In this document: in pieces, positions 45,362-61,810 of the stretch
How positions within the stretch are numbered: the stretch's first letter is position 1
Layout: every line of letters begins with the position of its first letter
Origin: a virus
IMG/VR virus record: IMGVR_UViG_3300045051_000531
DNA: 64,000 nt
Reading direction: 5' to 3' (one strand)
Program-made: the position numbers and the translations under genes
The notes under the pieces: model-generated
Told to the model about the DNA's origin: nothing
The model's database searches: none
What the model saw: the letters and a program-made list of their open reading frames with translations, nothing else

Positions 45362-45364
45362 AAG

Positions 45365-45438
45365 TCGCCGCGGAGGGATTCGAACCCCCAACATCTACGA
45401 CCTCAACGTAGCGCCTCTGCCAGTTGGGCTACGCGGCG
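45365..45438 (-). tRNA. tRNA-Leu(GAG), short variable loop
   Basis: Loop TT-GAG-GT; variable region ATGTT; A73. Confidence 0.85.
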
Positions 45439-45515
45439 TGGTACGCCTGGGTGGACTCGAACCACCAACTGACTCCATTTTGAGTGGAGCACCTCTGCCG
45501 TTGGGTTACAGGCGC
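45439..45515 (-). tRNA. tRNA-Leu(CAA), short variable loop
   Basis: Loop CT-CAA-AA; variable region TCAGTT; A73; CCA encoded. Confidence 0.88.
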
Positions 45516-45611: not shown

Positions 45612-45688
45612 TGGTACCGGAAGTGGGAGTCGAACCCACATAGATCTTGGTTCTGAGCCAAGCATGTCTCCTGTTGCATCATTCCGGC
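45612..45688 (-). tRNA. tRNA-Leu(CAG), short variable loop
   Basis: Loop CT-CAG-AA; variable region ATCTAT; A73; CCA encoded. Confidence 0.88.
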
Positions 45689-49343: not shown

Positions 49344-49420
49344 TGCAGAATGGAGGAGAGGTTGTCCTCGCTGGGCTCATATCCCAGAGACCGCTGGTTC
49401 GAATCCAGCTTCTGCACCCA
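49344..49420 (+). tRNA. tRNA-Met(CAT), initiator-type
   Basis: Anticodon stem CTGGG/CCCAG with three G-C pairs; loop CT-CAT-AT; CCA encoded. Confidence 0.88.
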
Positions 49421-51944: not shown

Positions 51945-51980
51945 TCCGTCGTTGACAACTAAACGCAATACCATGGTTAT

Positions 51981-52051
51981 GGCGGGGAGCCTCAGAGGTC
52001 GGCTGGTCTCATAAGCCAGCTTAGATGGTTCGACTCCATCCCCCGCAACCA
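51981..52051 (+). tRNA. tRNA-Met(CAT) with reduced D-arm and 1:72 mismatch
   Basis: GGCGGGG/CCCCGCA-A-CCA; loop CT-CAT-AA; T-arm GATGG-TTCGACT-CCATC. Confidence 0.75.
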
Positions 52052-58440: not shown

Positions 58441-59783
58441 AAGACCTCTTCGCACCGGACCCCAAGCCGCCGGCGCAGAAGCCGGGAGACGGGGTCACCT
58501 TGTCTCCAGGTCAGGATGAAGCCGCGAAGCGCGTCCTGGCTCCACAGGGTCGGGTCTCCATCCTGACGGGTCCAGCTGGTTGTGGGAAATCCACGATCAT
58601 CAACCATCTCCGCGAAACGGTGCCCTGCACGATCGCCGCGACGACTGGCAAAGCCGCGATGCACATCGACGGCTGCACCGTGGACTCCCTGTTCTGTTTC
58701 AACCGGGACAACTACCGGGTCTGGAACGAGGACTTCCTGACGTACGTGATGAGGGAAGCCGCGGATCTCATCATCATCGACGAGGCCTCCATGATCGGGA
58801 AAAGGATGGCCAATCTGATCTACGAGATCGCCGTGGCCCACAAAAAGCGGCTCCTTCTCGTCGGTGACTGGGCCCAGGCCCGTCCGGTCAAGGATGACTG
58901 GATCACGAACTCCAAGATGATGGCGGACTACGACCTCATCAAGTTGACGGAGTGCCACCGGCAGAGCGAGGGCCCCTACCTGGAGGCCCTGAACGATGTC
59001 AGGCTCGGGCATATCTCCGAAGCCACGGAAGCCCTGTTCAAGTCGCGTGTCGGTTTGAAGCCGCCGGAGGGCAGCCACGTCATCCGGGCCTTCGCGACCA
59101 ACGCGAAAGCTGACGCCTTCAACCAGGCCAACCTGTGGAGGCTCGTCGCCCTCGGTGGCGCCACGGCGTTCCGGCTCTTCGCGACATACCACGATGCCCG
59201 GGATCCCAAGAAGCAGGCCGATAAGCCGCGGGACGAGGGCTACAAGCTGGACGCCATCGAAGCCACGAACTTCGCTCACGGGGAACCCTTCGCGCTGGGG
59301 TGCCGCGTCGTCTGCACCTACAACGAACCCGAGTTCAAGTCTTACGTCAACGGTGACACCGGGGACCTCATCGGGGGATCCTGCCAGGACGGCAGATCCC
59401 TGCAGTCCGCGCTGGAGGCCTTCGCGAAGAACGAGACTCCGTTTCGGATCGAGGCTCTCCAGATCAAGCTGGACCGGGGCCCCGTGGTCCTCGTCAGGAC
59501 CCTGGAGCGGGAGAAGAAGGATGCCCTGGACCGCGTCCAGGACGTCATCACCGGGTTCCCGCTGCGTCTCGGTTACGGGATCACGATCCATAAGAGCCAG
59601 GGCATGACGGTGCAAGCCGCACAAGTCGACCTGGAGTCCTTACTGGCGTTCCCCGATAAGGAGAGCCGCCACGGACTCGCGTATGTTGCCCTGAGCCGAA
59701 CCAAGACGCTCGAAGGGCTCTATCTCCGCAACTGGGCCCCAGAAGCGATCTTCTGCGACCCCGAGATCAGAGGATTCCTATGA
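58437..59783 (+). CDS. Pif1/RecD-like SF1B DNA helicase
   Basis: TGPAGCGKS, IIDEASM, VGDWAQ, LGYGITIHKSQGMT, YVALSR. Confidence 0.93.
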   Translation: MKDLFAPDPKPPAQKPGDGVTLSPGQDEAAKRVLAPQGRVSILTGPAGCGKSTIINHLRETVPCTIAATTGKAAMHIDGCTVDSLFCFNRDNYRVWNEDFLTYVMREAADLIIIDEASMIGKRMANLIYEIAVAHKKRLLLVGDWAQARPVKDDWITNSKMMADYDLIKLTECHRQSEGPYLEALNDVRLGHISEATEALFKSRVGLKPPEGSHVIRAFATNAKADAFNQANLWRLVALGGATAFRLFATYHDARDPKKQADKPRDEGYKLDAIEATNFAHGEPFALGCRVVCTYNEPEFKSYVNGDTGDLIGGSCQDGRSLQSALEAFAKNETPFRIEALQIKLDRGPVVLVRTLEREKKDALDRVQDVITGFPLRLGYGITIHKSQGMTVQAAQVDLESLLAFPDKESRHGLAYVALSRTKTLEGLYLRNWAPEAIFCDPEIRGFL

Positions 59784-60097
59784 CCCGTGTCGTCGAGGTC
59801 GTCCTGCGCGAAGTCAGGGAGCAAAAATATCTCATGGAGATCCCAGACGATCGCGAACTGGAATGGATCAAGCGGTACTTCTGGGACGCCAACATAAGCT
59901 CGTATGTTGATCCGATCGACGAGGACTACGTGGAGACCGATGTCACGCGCGTCGAAGGACTGGATTCTGACGTCGTCGAAAAGATGCCGGGGCACATAAC
60001 GCGCAAGATCCGGTATCTCGATGCCGACGCAGCCGCAGAGGTCGATGGTGTGTTCGAACAGCTCCGGCGAGAAGCTCAGGCCACGACGAACCGGTAG
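59780..60097 (+). CDS. Hypothetical acidic protein
   Basis: 105 aa, ATGA coupling, TAG stop. Confidence 0.7.
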   Translation: MTRVVEVVLREVREQKYLMEIPDDRELEWIKRYFWDANISSYVDPIDEDYVETDVTRVEGLDSDVVEKMPGHITRKIRYLDADAAAEVDGVFEQLRREAQATTNR

Positions 60098-60103
60098 CCC
60101 CAG

Positions 60104-60176
60104 GCGTCCGTACCTCAGTGGCAGAGGAGCGGTTTCTAAAACCGGCCAGTCGCGGGTTCGATCCCCGCCGGACGCA
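60104..60176 (+). tRNA. Amber suppressor tRNA (anticodon CTA)
   Basis: Acceptor GCGTCCG/CGGACGC-A; D-stem CCTC/GAGG; anticodon stem GCGGT/ACCGG; loop TT-CTA-AA (60134-60140); T-arm GCGGG-TTCGATC-CCCGC. Confidence 0.85.
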
Positions 60177-60216
60177 GTACCTTGCTCAATCAACAGGAAC
60201 CCATAGAAAGGGAACC

Positions 60217-60540
60217 ATGCGCCAGTAGCTAACTCACTTCTTCGTTTGGGTCAGAACCGACTTATCGGTCCCCCAGCAACTCGTTCAGGCCGTCCATGCC
60301 GCTCACACGGCTGGGGCCAGGTTTACAGATCTCCCTGATCAACTCAGCGTTGTGGTTTGCGCGCTTCCCGATGAAGCCGCGATCGATGAGCTCGTCAAGT
60401 ACCTCGATCTCGTTGGGATCACCTATGTCGTGTTCCGGGAACCCGACCTCGGCGACACCAGGACCTCCGTTGCTACGGCGCCACTGACGGCGTCGCAGCG
60501 TCGCGCCCTGAGGCACTACCAGCTCTGGGGGTCCCAGTGA
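60217..60540 (+). CDS. pth2: Peptidyl-tRNA hydrolase 2 (Pth2)-like protein with in-frame TAG at codon 4
   Basis: SD GAAAGGGA, ATG CGC CAG TAG, then LTHFFVWVRTDLSVPQQLVQAVHAA...LSVVVCALPDEAAI...FREPDLGDTRTSVATAP, matching Pth2 motifs (VRxDL, QxxHA, PD/T). Confidence 0.8.
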
Positions 60541-60614: not shown

Positions 60615-60899
60615 ATGCCCACCAACACCGCCGACACCGTCGACTTCTACCGCCAGTTCACCGAAGAGGAGCGCGCCGCGTTCCACGCCAAGCGCATCGC
60701 GCTTCGCGACCAGATCAAGGAGCTCGCCGGTCACCAAGTCCTGGCCAAGGAGACCCTGAGGCAGCCGCATCACGAGGTCTTCAAGGTCGGCCCGATCATG
60801 GCGCACGCCCACTGGCGCGCCAAACGGATCACGGATCTGCTCCGGGAATACCACGTTCACCGGAGAACCGGCAAGGAGGCCGCGCACCACGTGGCCTGA
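60615..60899 (+). CDS. Hypothetical protein
   Basis: ATG 60615 with GGAG SD; 94 aa. Confidence 0.7.
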   Translation: MPTNTADTVDFYRQFTEEERAAFHAKRIALRDQIKELAGHQVLAKETLRQPHHEVFKVGPIMAHAHWRAKRITDLLREYHVHRRTGKEAAHHVA

Positions 60900-60950
60900 A
60901 CAAGACCCAGCTAGCTGGAAACAGCTGGCTGGGTCGCATTGAAAGGAATT

Positions 60951-61376
60951 ATGACCTACGAGCAGCACGACAGGCTCAAGATAATCGGCGGGGTCCTGCT
61001 CATAGCGGCCCTTATAGCCTGGGTGGTCGCTGAGTTCGCCGTGACGAAGTCTTTCGTTGGGGCGCTGGTCAGTAAGGGCATCTCGGTGTCCTACAGCCGG
61101 GACTACGAGGACGACGAGACCACGGCGACGAAACGCTACGAGCTCACGTTCTACGTCGACGGTAACATGAAGACCGTTCTCGTTGAAAAACAGCGGGCCA
61201 CGCGCATCGGCTGGAGTGAAGCGGCTGCCCTCCAGAAGCTGGAGGCCAACAACTCGGAACCAGCTGAGTTCACGCACGCCAAGGTACAGAGGCAGTACGT
61301 CGTCAAGACGCGCGGCTGGATCATCGATGACACCGTTATCGAGATCACCGATCTCGCAACTATAAAAGCGGAGTAA
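60951..61376 (+). CDS. Hypothetical membrane-anchored protein
   Basis: N-terminal hydrophobic helix; AAAGGA SD. Confidence 0.7.
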   Translation: MTYEQHDRLKIIGGVLLIAALIAWVVAEFAVTKSFVGALVSKGISVSYSRDYEDDETTATKRYELTFYVDGNMKTVLVEKQRATRIGWSEAAALQKLEANNSEPAEFTHAKVQRQYVVKTRGWIIDDTVIEITDLATIKAE

Positions 61377-61378
61377 CC

Positions 61379-61810
61379 ATGAAAACACTCGAACAGATCA
61401 TGGGGTACCAGTCCGAGGCCCTCGACGGCCGTGACCTTTACAGGCTCATGGACTTCATCCCAGAAGCCGATCTACCCAAGCTCAAGCTCGAACTGAAACC
61501 CGAGTACGTCGGGAAGCACGCCGCGGTTCCCCTGACCCGCGAAGCCGTTCTGGAGCGCCTGAAGCGCGATCTCGAGTTCGCCTTCGAGAAGGCGCTCAAC
61601 AAGCGTGGGATCTCGGCCAGCCTGATGGTCGAGGTCGTCGCGATGTGGAATTGGGTCCTGGAAGAGGGGCTCGAGAAGTGCCCCGAGGACATGTACGCCC
61701 AGTACGGGCTCCCGTTCCTCAAGGCCACCGCGCTGAAGCATGGGTTCGAGAACCCCATCGGCGATGACCGCGGTGACGAGTTCAAGTACAGCGCTGAAGG
61801 CGAGTACTGA
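61379..61810 (+). CDS. Hypothetical protein
   Basis: 143 aa, GGAG SD. Confidence 0.75.
   Translation: MKTLEQIMGYQSEALDGRDLYRLMDFIPEADLPKLKLELKPEYVGKHAAVPLTREAVLERLKRDLEFAFEKALNKRGISASLMVEVVAMWNWVLEEGLEKCPEDMYAQYGLPFLKATALKHGFENPIGDDRGDEFKYSAEGEY

What the first reader, a model, noticed from the sequence alone, without database searches (positions are those of the whole stretch)
60104..60540. Amber suppressor tRNA directly upstream of a Pth2-like gene that needs UAG readthrough at codon 4
Seen: a complete cloverleaf with anticodon CTA (60136-60138) ends 40 nt before a good SD and ATG (60217). The frame reads ATG CGC CAG TAG and then continues as a full Pth2-like domain to TGA 60540. No in-frame ATG/GTG/TTG lies between the TAG and the conserved VRxDL/QxxHA motifs, so the enzyme can only be made by amber readthrough. 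TAG is otherwise used as a normal stop here, so this is not genome-wide recoding. Established: Pth2 releases peptides from dropped-off peptidyl-tRNA; bacterial LeuRS largely ignores the anticodon. Inference: a two-part switch in which hydrolase output reports charged-suppressor availability or RF1 competition, e.g. during host translation shut-off or tRNA attack. The tRNA body (GGCAGAGG D region, CCAGTC variable region, A73) resembles the short-arm Leu tRNAs of this phage, so Leu may be inserted.
Basis: partly seen in the sequence, partly recalled or inferred. Interest (0 to 1): 0.92.

Follow-up and report, generated by a model that had tools for sequence, protein, structure and literature searches.

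The report
Suppressor-tRNA-gated phage Pth2-like gene
A complete 191-kb phage that uses the normal genetic code has a UAG stop as codon 4 of a small peptidyl-tRNA-hydrolase-like gene, 40 bases after its own UAG-reading tRNA; dozens of distant phages share this layout, so the enzyme is probably made only when that tRNA overrides the stop.

Summary
A full-length tRNA with anticodon CUA lies at 60104-60176. Forty bases later come a Shine-Dalgarno site and ATG-CGC-CAG-TAG. The frame then stays open for 103 codons with no start codon before the conserved core.

That product has a Pth2 fold (AlphaFold pLDDT 93; best PDB matches are all Pth2 or Bit1). The genome is not recoded: 43 of about 224 genes end in TAG, and this is the only gene built this way.

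The gate is not an error. Of 91 distinct related loci, 58 have a 1-11 codon Met-leader ending in an in-frame stop just before the domain. These include the cultured phages ME3, GAP32, fHe-Yen9-04, RsoM2USA and Arash.
- 41 of 54 TAG-gated loci carry a tRNA-CUA in the fetched DNA.
- Two of three TGA-gated loci carry a tRNA-UCA instead. One of them is the window's nearest relative.

I read it as suppression-dependent translation. Why a Pth2-like enzyme is tied to a suppressor remains inference, and Leu insertion is unsupported. Raw reads could not be checked.

This scan has already noted the same layout in at least 22 other genomes. I found no paper describing it.

The parts
60104..60176 (+). Amber-suppressor tRNA, anticodon CUA at 60136-60138. 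Discriminator A, no encoded CCA, class I (short variable arm).
   Evidence: ARAGORN. Rfam RF00005 at 58.3 bits, full length. The sequence resembles the tRNA-CUA of related loci L025 and L026.
60177..60216 (+). 40-nt spacer carrying a Shine-Dalgarno-like GAAAGGGA (60206-60213), 3 nt before the leader ATG. No promoter or terminator is predicted between the tRNA and the gene.
   Evidence: Sequence. The promoter/terminator scan found none on the + strand. Related loci carry GGAG/AGGAG-type sites at the same spacing before their leader ATG.
60217..60228 (+). Leader ATG-CGC-CAG followed by the gate codon TAG (60226-60228). The next base is C.
   Evidence: Leaders of 1-11 codons (mostly 2-4) ending in an in-frame stop occur in 58 of 91 distinct homologous loci.
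60229..60540 (+). Pth2-fold domain of 103 codons plus TGA stop, in frame with the leader. It holds the family's invariant R9, D11, Q20, H23, A24, F69, E71, P72, D73 and T79.
   Evidence: tblastn aligns homologues from residue 2-4 onward. Alignments A1 and A2. AlphaFold2 pLDDT 93.4. Foldseek top hits are all Pth2/Bit1, TM 0.73-0.79. The family profile hits solved Pth2 chains at E 4e-10 and 8e-9. 26 of 33 homologues match Pfam PF01981.

Best explanation
Ribosomes start at the Shine-Dalgarno-led ATG at 60217 and meet UAG at codon 4. RF1 can release a useless tripeptide, or the phage's own tRNA-CUA can insert an amino acid and translation continues into the 103-residue Pth2-fold protein. That tRNA is encoded 40 nt upstream and is probably cut from the same transcript. 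Output of the enzyme is therefore set by the balance between active suppressor tRNA and RF1. Placing the stop in a short, unconserved leader means any inserted residue is tolerated and failed attempts cost almost nothing. Shown here: the anatomy, the fold, normal use of TAG elsewhere in the genome, wide conservation of the gate, and co-variation of stop codon with anticodon. Inferred: that readthrough really occurs; that the protein hydrolyses peptidyl- or N-acyl-aminoacyl-tRNA; and that linking it to UAG decoding supplies tRNA-recycling capacity when UAG termination is being overridden or RF1 is limiting. The logic resembles the early in-frame UGA of prfB, which senses RF2.
For: Anatomy. No recoding: TAG ends 43 of 224 called genes and the standard code covers 93% of the genome; no other gene has this build. 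The genome is complete, with direct terminal repeats and 100% CheckV completeness. Conservation: a leader plus in-frame stop occurs in 58 of 91 distinct loci at 24-50% identity. These include the cultured phages ME3, GAP32, fHe-Yen9-04, RsoM2USA and Arash, and the HD-Pth fusions of XacN1 and CM1. Linkage: tRNA-CTA is present in 36 of 65 IMG/VR loci, always on the gene's strand, while the next most common anticodon is in 14 of 65. Five complete gated phages with no tRNA in the flank all carry a tRNA-CTA elsewhere. Co-variation: the TGA-gated loci L019 and L039 carry tRNA-TCA and no tRNA-CTA. Counting loci that carry only one kind of suppressor, 40 TAG-gated loci have tRNA-CTA (one more has both kinds); Fisher p = 0.0012. 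L019 is the window's sister on the tree, SH-aLRT 93. TAG is read elsewhere too: L040 and L060 have a second TAG inside the domain, and the neighbouring HD-like gene of GAP32 and fHe-Yen9-04 has an internal TAG with homology on both sides. Context: Shine-Dalgarno sites sit at start-codon spacing before the leader ATG, and a purine follows the stop in 52 of 58 gates. Fold.
Against: A crude codon-usage score for the 41 codons between the TAG and GTG 60352 is slightly negative (-4.9), so composition alone does not mark them as coding. The window protein gets no Pfam PF01981 hit. The position that aligns with the Pth2 'GK' lysine holds Gln or other residues in this family, and the Asp of the Pth2 'DAG' motif is replaced by an invariant Glu, so hydrolase activity is not assured. 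13 of 54 TAG-gated loci show no tRNA-CTA in the DNA fetched; many are short contigs. 11 of 33 ungated homologues still keep a tRNA-CTA nearby, among them Mycobacterium phage IkeLoa. The tRNA-enzyme link is therefore not explained by gating alone. The window's stop context (Gln before, C after) departs from the family norm of Thr before and a purine after.
Confidence: 0.75

Rival explanations
1. The gate is real, but the enzyme's main substrate is the suppressor tRNA itself. The Pth2-like protein strips the aminoacyl or peptidyl group from tRNA-CUA, so its suppression-dependent synthesis forms a negative-feedback loop that holds readthrough at a low set level.
For: The tRNA-CTA stays next to the gene even where the gene has a normal start (L034-L038, L048, L074, L076, L079, IkeLoa). 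That points to a link beyond expression control. The active-site residues differ from classical Pth2. No other target of the suppressor is visible in this genome, and none was found in XacN1 (PMC5852040).
Against: There is no direct evidence. It leaves open why the phage keeps a suppressor at all. The suppressor tRNAs differ widely in sequence and even in class; L060's has a long variable arm. A hydrolase specific for them would have to recognise the anticodon.
Confidence: 0.12
2. The mini-ORF simply terminates at UAG. The ribosome then re-initiates on a non-canonical codon just after it, so the tRNA-CUA is unrelated to expression of the gene.
For: The codon after the stop is Ile (ATT, ATC or ATA) in 17 of 43 gated loci. 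A few loci have GTG or ATG right after the stop (IkeLoa, L029, L065).
Against: In the window, none of the eight codons between the TAG and the Arg codon of the R-x-D-L motif is a canonical or near-cognate start. No post-stop codon is conserved across the family. Shine-Dalgarno sites are spaced for the leader ATG, which puts them 12-18 nt from the post-stop codon. This model cannot explain the TGA/tRNA-UCA co-variation or the second, internal TAGs.
Confidence: 0.07
3. The gene is a pseudogene or carries an assembly or sequencing error at codon 4, and the tRNA-CUA sits there by coincidence.
For: Raw reads could not be inspected. Codon-usage support for the N-terminal part is weak.
Against: The same early stop occurs in 58 of 91 distinct, independently assembled loci, including finished genomes of cultured phages. 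The downstream domain keeps every invariant residue of the family.
Confidence: 0.02
4. The phage reads TAG as a sense codon throughout its genome (code-15-like recoding), and this gene is one of many affected.
For: The phage encodes a suppressor tRNA, as recoded phages do.
Against: TAG ends 43 of 224 called genes. The standard code gives 93% coding density. In-frame continuation after TAG stops (8 of 43) is no commoner than after TAA (16 of 58). No release-factor gene was found.
Confidence: 0.01

Closest known systems
Stop-codon-recoded phages with their own suppressor tRNAs (TAG read as Gln, 'code 15'; bioRxiv 10.1101/2021.08.26.457843, PMC9523058)
   Same: A phage-encoded tRNA-CUA decodes in-frame TAG in phage genes while the host uses the standard code. 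Suppressor supply has been proposed to control which genes are translated.
   Different: In those phages TAG is reassigned in many, mostly late, genes and is lost as a terminator. Here TAG ends 19% of genes and a single gene carries one TAG, in a 3-codon leader, with the tRNA linked in cis.
prfB (RF2) autoregulation through an early in-frame UGA (from general knowledge, not tested here)
   Same: A translation-factor gene carries a deliberate stop codon near its 5' end. Full-length product is made only when termination at that stop loses to a competing event, so output reports termination capacity.
   Different: prfB escapes by a +1 frameshift and senses its own product. Here the escape is cognate decoding by a dedicated tRNA, the frame does not change, and the termination factor involved would be RF1, which the phage does not encode.
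Peptidyl-tRNA hydrolase 2 (Pfam PF01981; PDB 2zv3, 3erj, 1wn2, 1xty, human Bit1 1q7s)
   Same: It has the same fold (TM 0.73-0.79). The R-x-D-L and Q-x-x-H-A motifs and the T-A motif line up. Most homologues match PF01981.
   Different: It is shorter. The 'GK' lysine is not conserved, and the 'DAG' Asp is replaced by the Glu of an invariant F-x-E-P-D motif. The window protein falls below Pfam detection. Activity is untested.
Orphan suppressor tRNAs of standard-code jumbo phages (XacN1, PMC5852040; Atu_ph07, PMC6102473)
   Same: These are phages of the same kind with tRNA-CUA or tRNA-UCA and a standard code. XacN1 itself carries a homologue of this gene.
   Different: The XacN1 authors read through 18 annotated amber stops and found no target. 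The candidate target here is a 2-4 codon leader too short to be annotated. In XacN1 it is ATG-AAG-TAG, 15 nt before the annotated start of ORF364.
Leader-peptide and minigene control (ErmCL, SecM; lambda bar minigenes; from general knowledge)
   Same: A very short ORF lies directly in front of the regulated gene. Two-to-four-codon ORFs are known for poor termination and peptidyl-tRNA drop-off, which is the substrate of Pth.
   Different: Those systems unmask or couple to a separate start codon. Here the domain has no start of its own and is in frame with the leader.

Membership tests
Canonical elongator tRNA (Rfam RF00005) | Full cloverleaf scoring above the family's gathering score | tested here: met
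   58.3 bits against 29, model positions 1-71 of 71. ARAGORN calls it with anticodon CTA.
Pyrrolysine system (tRNA-Pyl with PylS) | A PylS synthetase encoded alongside the tRNA-CUA | tested here: not met
   TIGR02367 has no match in the complete genome. ARAGORN's 'Pyl' label only reflects the CTA anticodon.
Pth2 (Pfam PF01981) | The protein itself matches PF01981 above the curated cut-off | tested here: not met
   No Pfam hit at E <= 1 for the window protein. PF01981 does not match anywhere in the genome.
Pth2 (Pfam PF01981) | Homology to Pth2 at the level of the family profile | tested here: met
   Profile A2 against PDB sequences: 24bt_A 4e-10, 2zv3 8e-9, 1rzw 1e-5, 1wn2 5e-5, Bit1 9e-5. 26 of 33 aligned homologues hit PF01981, best E 9.6e-13.
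Pth2 (Pfam PF01981) | Pth2 alpha/beta fold | tested here: met
   AlphaFold2 pLDDT 93.4, pTM 0.86. The top 12 Foldseek PDB hits are all Pth2/Bit1 structures, probability 1.00, TM 0.73-0.79.
Pth2 (Pfam PF01981) | Catalytic Lys ('GK') and Asp ('DAG'); these residues are recalled from the Sulfolobus Pth2 literature and were not re-read here | tested here: inconclusive
   In the HMMER alignments the Lys position holds Gln or a variable residue, and the Asp position holds the family's invariant Glu71.
Pth2 (Pfam PF01981) | Hydrolysis of peptidyl-tRNA or N-acyl-aminoacyl-tRNA | not testable with these tools
   This needs an enzyme assay or complementation of a pth(ts) strain.
Genome-wide TAG reassignment (code-15-like phages) | TAG lost as a terminator and present inside many genes | tested here: not met
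   43 of 224 genes end in TAG, standard-code coverage is 93%, and only one gated gene was found.
Suppressor-gated Pth2-like module of large phages (the recurrent layout described here) | Met-leader of 1-11 codons ending in an in-frame stop directly before the Pth2-like core, with no usable start after it | tested here: met
   Window: ATG CGC CAG TAG, no start for 41 codons. 58 of 91 distinct loci are gated, 47 of them strictly.
Suppressor-gated Pth2-like module of large phages (the recurrent layout described here) | A cognate suppressor tRNA in the same genome, usually nearby on the same strand | tested here: met
   Window: tRNA-CUA 40 nt upstream. 41 of 54 TAG-gated loci carry tRNA-CTA, 2 of 3 TGA-gated loci carry tRNA-TCA, and 5 of 5 complete genomes have one elsewhere.
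Leader-peptide or arrest-peptide control of a downstream cistron | The regulated gene has its own start codon and Shine-Dalgarno site, unmasked by events on the leader | tested here: not met
   There is no canonical or near-cognate start between the TAG and the conserved core, and the domain is in frame with the leader.

The most novel reading that the evidence does not exclude
The tRNA-CUA and the amber-gated Pth2-like gene form a self-contained sensor-effector circuit for UAG decoding. In some phages a neighbouring HD-like gene carrying an internal TAG, or fused to the gated gene, would belong to it too. The leader stop measures the balance between suppressor and RF1. The output is an enzyme acting on tRNA 3' ends that either clears the peptidyl-tRNA made when UAG termination fails or deacylates the suppressor itself to hold readthrough at a set point. 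This would be the long-missing purpose of 'orphan' suppressor tRNAs in standard-code jumbo phages, and a natural single-gene, tRNA-operated translational switch.
Probability: 0.3. Interest if true: 0.92.

Novelty: new variant of a known kind. Interest (0 to 1): 0.85.

Why it matters
Many large phages with a standard code carry suppressor tRNAs whose targets nobody has found. The XacN1 authors looked and reported none. This layout supplies a specific, conserved target that gene callers miss, because the leader is only 2-4 codons long and the gene then appears to have no start. In several GenBank records the gene is unannotated or called too short. If readthrough is confirmed, this would be a natural switch in which one tRNA controls one gene, in a system tied to tRNA recycling. 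It occurs in cultured phages of Cronobacter, Acinetobacter, Yersinia, Salmonella and Ralstonia, so it can be tested directly at the bench. It would also offer compact natural parts (leader contexts and matching suppressor tRNAs) for controlled amber suppression.

Tried and rejected
- **Near-identical DNA in GenBank phages.** None found. The closest protein relatives anywhere are only 42-50% identical, so the test 'do close relatives keep the TAG' could be run only at that distance.
- **The search for related loci with alignments.** It failed on metagenome contigs and genome contigs because no block was conserved enough. The single-protein scan of genome contigs found no relative in cellular genomes.
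- **Pfam and PHROGs on the window protein.** Pfam gave nothing. PHROGs gave only an unnamed family, phrog_34073.
- **Neighbouring ORFs (59780-60097, 60615-60899, 60939-61376, 61379-61810).** No Pfam family. No neighbour family is conserved with the window across loci.
- **HD-like partner gene.** It is fused or adjacent in XacN1, CM1, ME3, Arash, RsoM2USA and GAP32, but absent from this genome by tblastn.
- **tRNA identity.** Comparison with the phage's own 12 other tRNAs and about 350 tRNAs of related loci gave no convincing assignment. The best matches were Arg(cct) and Lys(ctt) at 25-30 of 73, so neither Leu nor any other residue can be named.
- **Codon-usage scoring of the stretch after the TAG.** Uninformative.
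- **Backup stops after the phage's normal TAG terminators.** No enrichment.
- **Promoter and terminator scan around the module.** Nothing on the + strand.

Full report
**What is in the window.**
ARAGORN calls a 73-nt tRNA at 60104-60176 on the + strand, with anticodon CTA at 60136-60138. Rfam's tRNA model matches it end to end at 58.3 bits, against a gathering score of 29. It has no encoded CCA. ARAGORN's 'Pyl' label only reflects the anticodon: the complete genome has no PylS.

Forty bases after the tRNA, and 3 nt after a GAAAGGGA Shine-Dalgarno-like site, the sequence reads ATG CGC CAG TAG (60217-60228). The frame then stays open for 103 codons to TGA at 60538-60540. None of the eight codons between the TAG and the Arg codon of the conserved R-x-D-L motif is a canonical or near-cognate start. 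The first in-frame start is GTG at 60352, which would remove the first strand and helix together with five invariant residues. No promoter or terminator is predicted between the tRNA and the gene.

**The genome.**
The window lies in a 191,518-bp IMG/VR virus record with direct terminal repeats, rated 100% complete. It is about 62% G+C. All 13 of its tRNAs lie in the window.

A crude codon-usage gene call gives 224 genes covering 93% of the genome under the standard code. Their stops are TGA 123, TAA 58 and TAG 43. In-frame continuation after TAG stops is no commoner than after TAA. This is the only called gene that has an ATG, a short leader and a TAG with no start after it. The phage is therefore not recoded. 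It encodes no release factor and no CCA-adding enzyme. It has no close cultured relative.

**The protein.**
The window protein gets no Pfam hit. Even so, tblastn aligns it from residue 2-4 onward to genes in jumbo phages and in Mycobacterium Bixzunavirus phages, where the gene is annotated 'peptidyl tRNA hydrolase'.
- A 33-sequence alignment gives an AlphaFold2 model with pLDDT 93.4.
- The top Foldseek PDB matches are all Pth2 or Bit1 structures, TM 0.73-0.79.
- The family profile hits solved Pth2 chains at E 4e-10 and 8e-9.
- 26 of the 33 homologues match Pfam PF01981.

In those alignments the R-x-D-L, Q-x-x-H-A and T-A motifs line up. The Pth2 'GK' lysine is not conserved, however, and the 'DAG' aspartate is replaced by the Glu of an invariant F-x-E-P-D motif. 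The gene is thus a divergent member of the Pth2 superfamily whose activity is unproven.

**The gate is conserved.**
I collected homologous loci from IMG/VR, JGI metagenomes and GenBank phages, which gave 91 distinct loci. In 58 of them a Met-leader of 1-11 codons, most often 2, ends in an in-frame stop directly before the domain. In 47 of these there is no usable start after the stop.

The leaders differ in length and sequence, but the stop is kept. Examples are MT*, MAQ*, MSH*, ML*, MGFT* and MRPDT*. Shine-Dalgarno sites sit at start-codon spacing before the leader ATG. The residue before the stop is Thr in 29 of 58 gates, and the base after it is a purine in 52 of 58. The window (Gln before, C after) is atypical on both counts.

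Cultured phages with the gate include Acinetobacter ME3, Cronobacter GAP32, Yersinia fHe-Yen9-04, Ralstonia RsoM2USA and Salmonella Arash. In several of their records the gene is missing or called too short. Xanthomonas XacN1 and Stenotrophomonas CM1 carry the domain fused behind an HD-like domain, and that longer frame is itself preceded by ATG-AAG-TAG.

**Link to the tRNA.**
In the 65 IMG/VR loci, tRNA-CTA is the commonest tRNA by far. It occurs in 36 loci, always on the gene's strand, while the next most common anticodon occurs in 14. Overall, 41 of 54 TAG-gated loci have a tRNA-CTA in the DNA fetched. Five complete gated phages had none in the flank, and all five carry one elsewhere, 3 to 100 kb away.

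The strongest evidence is co-variation. The TGA-gated loci L019 and L039 carry a tRNA with anticodon TCA and no tRNA-CTA. Among loci carrying only one kind of suppressor, 40 TAG-gated loci have tRNA-CTA; the resulting table gives Fisher p = 0.0012. On a maximum-likelihood tree L019 is the window's sister (SH-aLRT 93), and the three TGA gates lie at three separate places inside TAG-gated groups. The tRNAs of the window, L019, L025 and L026 look related in acceptor, anticodon-stem and T-arm sequence.

TAG is also read elsewhere in these phages. L040 and L060 have a second TAG inside the domain, with homology on both sides. The HD-like gene just downstream in GAP32 and fHe-Yen9-04 has an internal TAG at codon 47.

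**Interpretation.**
These results exclude an assembly error, a lone nonsense mutation and genome-wide recoding. They also make re-initiation on a non-canonical codon unlikely, although Ile codons are frequent after the stop (17 of 43). The best reading is suppression-dependent translation: the enzyme is made in proportion to active tRNA-CUA relative to RF1.

Why a Pth2-like enzyme should be controlled this way is not shown. I favour a feed-forward link between overriding UAG termination and recycling of peptidyl-tRNA. This is close in logic to the early UGA of prfB, and it fits the known tendency of very short ORFs to shed peptidyl-tRNA; both comparisons rest on general knowledge. An alternative is that the enzyme acts on the suppressor itself as negative feedback. 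That would fit the 11 of 33 ungated homologues that still keep a tRNA-CTA next door, including Mycobacterium phage IkeLoa.

The inserted amino acid cannot be named. The tRNA is no closer to the phage's Leu tRNAs than to its Thr or Asn tRNAs. Suppressors in other loci differ in sequence and even in class, which suits a gate placed where any residue will do.

**Novelty.**
Four literature searches found no description of this layout. The XacN1 paper states that targets of its two CUA suppressors could not be identified. The Klebsiella phage paper likewise leaves the role of such tRNAs open.

This scan's own notes already record the same layout in at least 22 other genomes, with the same reading. 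I re-derived the main points independently here and add that the window's nearest relative is a TGA/tRNA-UCA variant.

**Limits.**
Raw reads could not be examined. Codon-usage support for the stretch after the TAG is absent. Nothing here demonstrates expression, charging or catalysis.

Noticed in passing
window 45364-45438, 45439-45515, 45612-45688 (- strand): The three tRNAs with Leu anticodons (gag, caa, cag) are only 75-77 nt long. They lack the long variable arm that bacterial tRNA-Leu normally has, whereas the neighbouring tRNA-Ser(tga) is 88 nt and keeps it. How they would be charged is unclear.
   Followed up: no
L011 2815-3378 (Cronobacter phage GAP32) and L012 2815-3378 (Yersinia phage fHe-Yen9-04): The HD-like gene directly downstream of the gated Pth2-like gene overlaps its stop (ATGA) and has an internal in-frame TAG at 2953, with homology to ME3_194 and XacN1 ORF364 on both sides. 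GenBank splits or omits it. This is a second gene in these phages that needs amber suppression.
   Followed up: partly
L013 1943-2803 (XacN1 ORF364), L018 (CM1); L010 2797-3360, L015 2796-3332, L014 3439-3978: An HD-like domain (H-D-x-G-K-P ... F-P-x-H-A) is fused in front of the Pth2-like domain in XacN1 and CM1. It is a separate adjacent gene in ME3, Arash and RsoM2USA. It has no Pfam hit and is absent from the window's genome.
   Followed up: partly
L040 6106 and L060 6070: Two IMG/VR homologues carry a second in-frame TAG inside the Pth2-like domain, in addition to the leader TAG.
   Followed up: partly
L015 3795-3869 (Salmonella phage Arash): The record annotates this tRNA as tRNA-Phe, but ARAGORN reads its anticodon as CTA.
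   Followed up: no
L016 2468-2476 (Mycobacterium phage IkeLoa): The annotated GTG start of its 'peptidyl tRNA hydrolase' is directly preceded, in frame, by ATG TAG. The Shine-Dalgarno spacing fits the GTG, so this may be a relic of the gate. A tRNA-CTA lies 250 nt downstream. The related high-GC locus L078 is strictly gated (MT*).
   Followed up: partly
L047 7713-7807; L060 6333-6423: Two odd suppressor-like tRNAs lie next to gated genes. One is a 95-nt call with anticodon tta containing a hairpin-like insert. The other is a 91-nt tRNA-CTA with a long variable arm.
   Followed up: no
window 60095-60097: The 105-codon ORF upstream (59780-60097) ends in TAG only 6 nt before the tRNA-CUA. Readthrough would add 13 residues before a TAA that overlaps the anticodon loop of the tRNA gene.
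   Followed up: no
whole genome G000: 216 of 224 crudely called genes lie on one strand. The genome has two tRNA-Met(cat) genes 2.5 kb apart (window 49344-49420 and 51978-52051).
   Followed up: no
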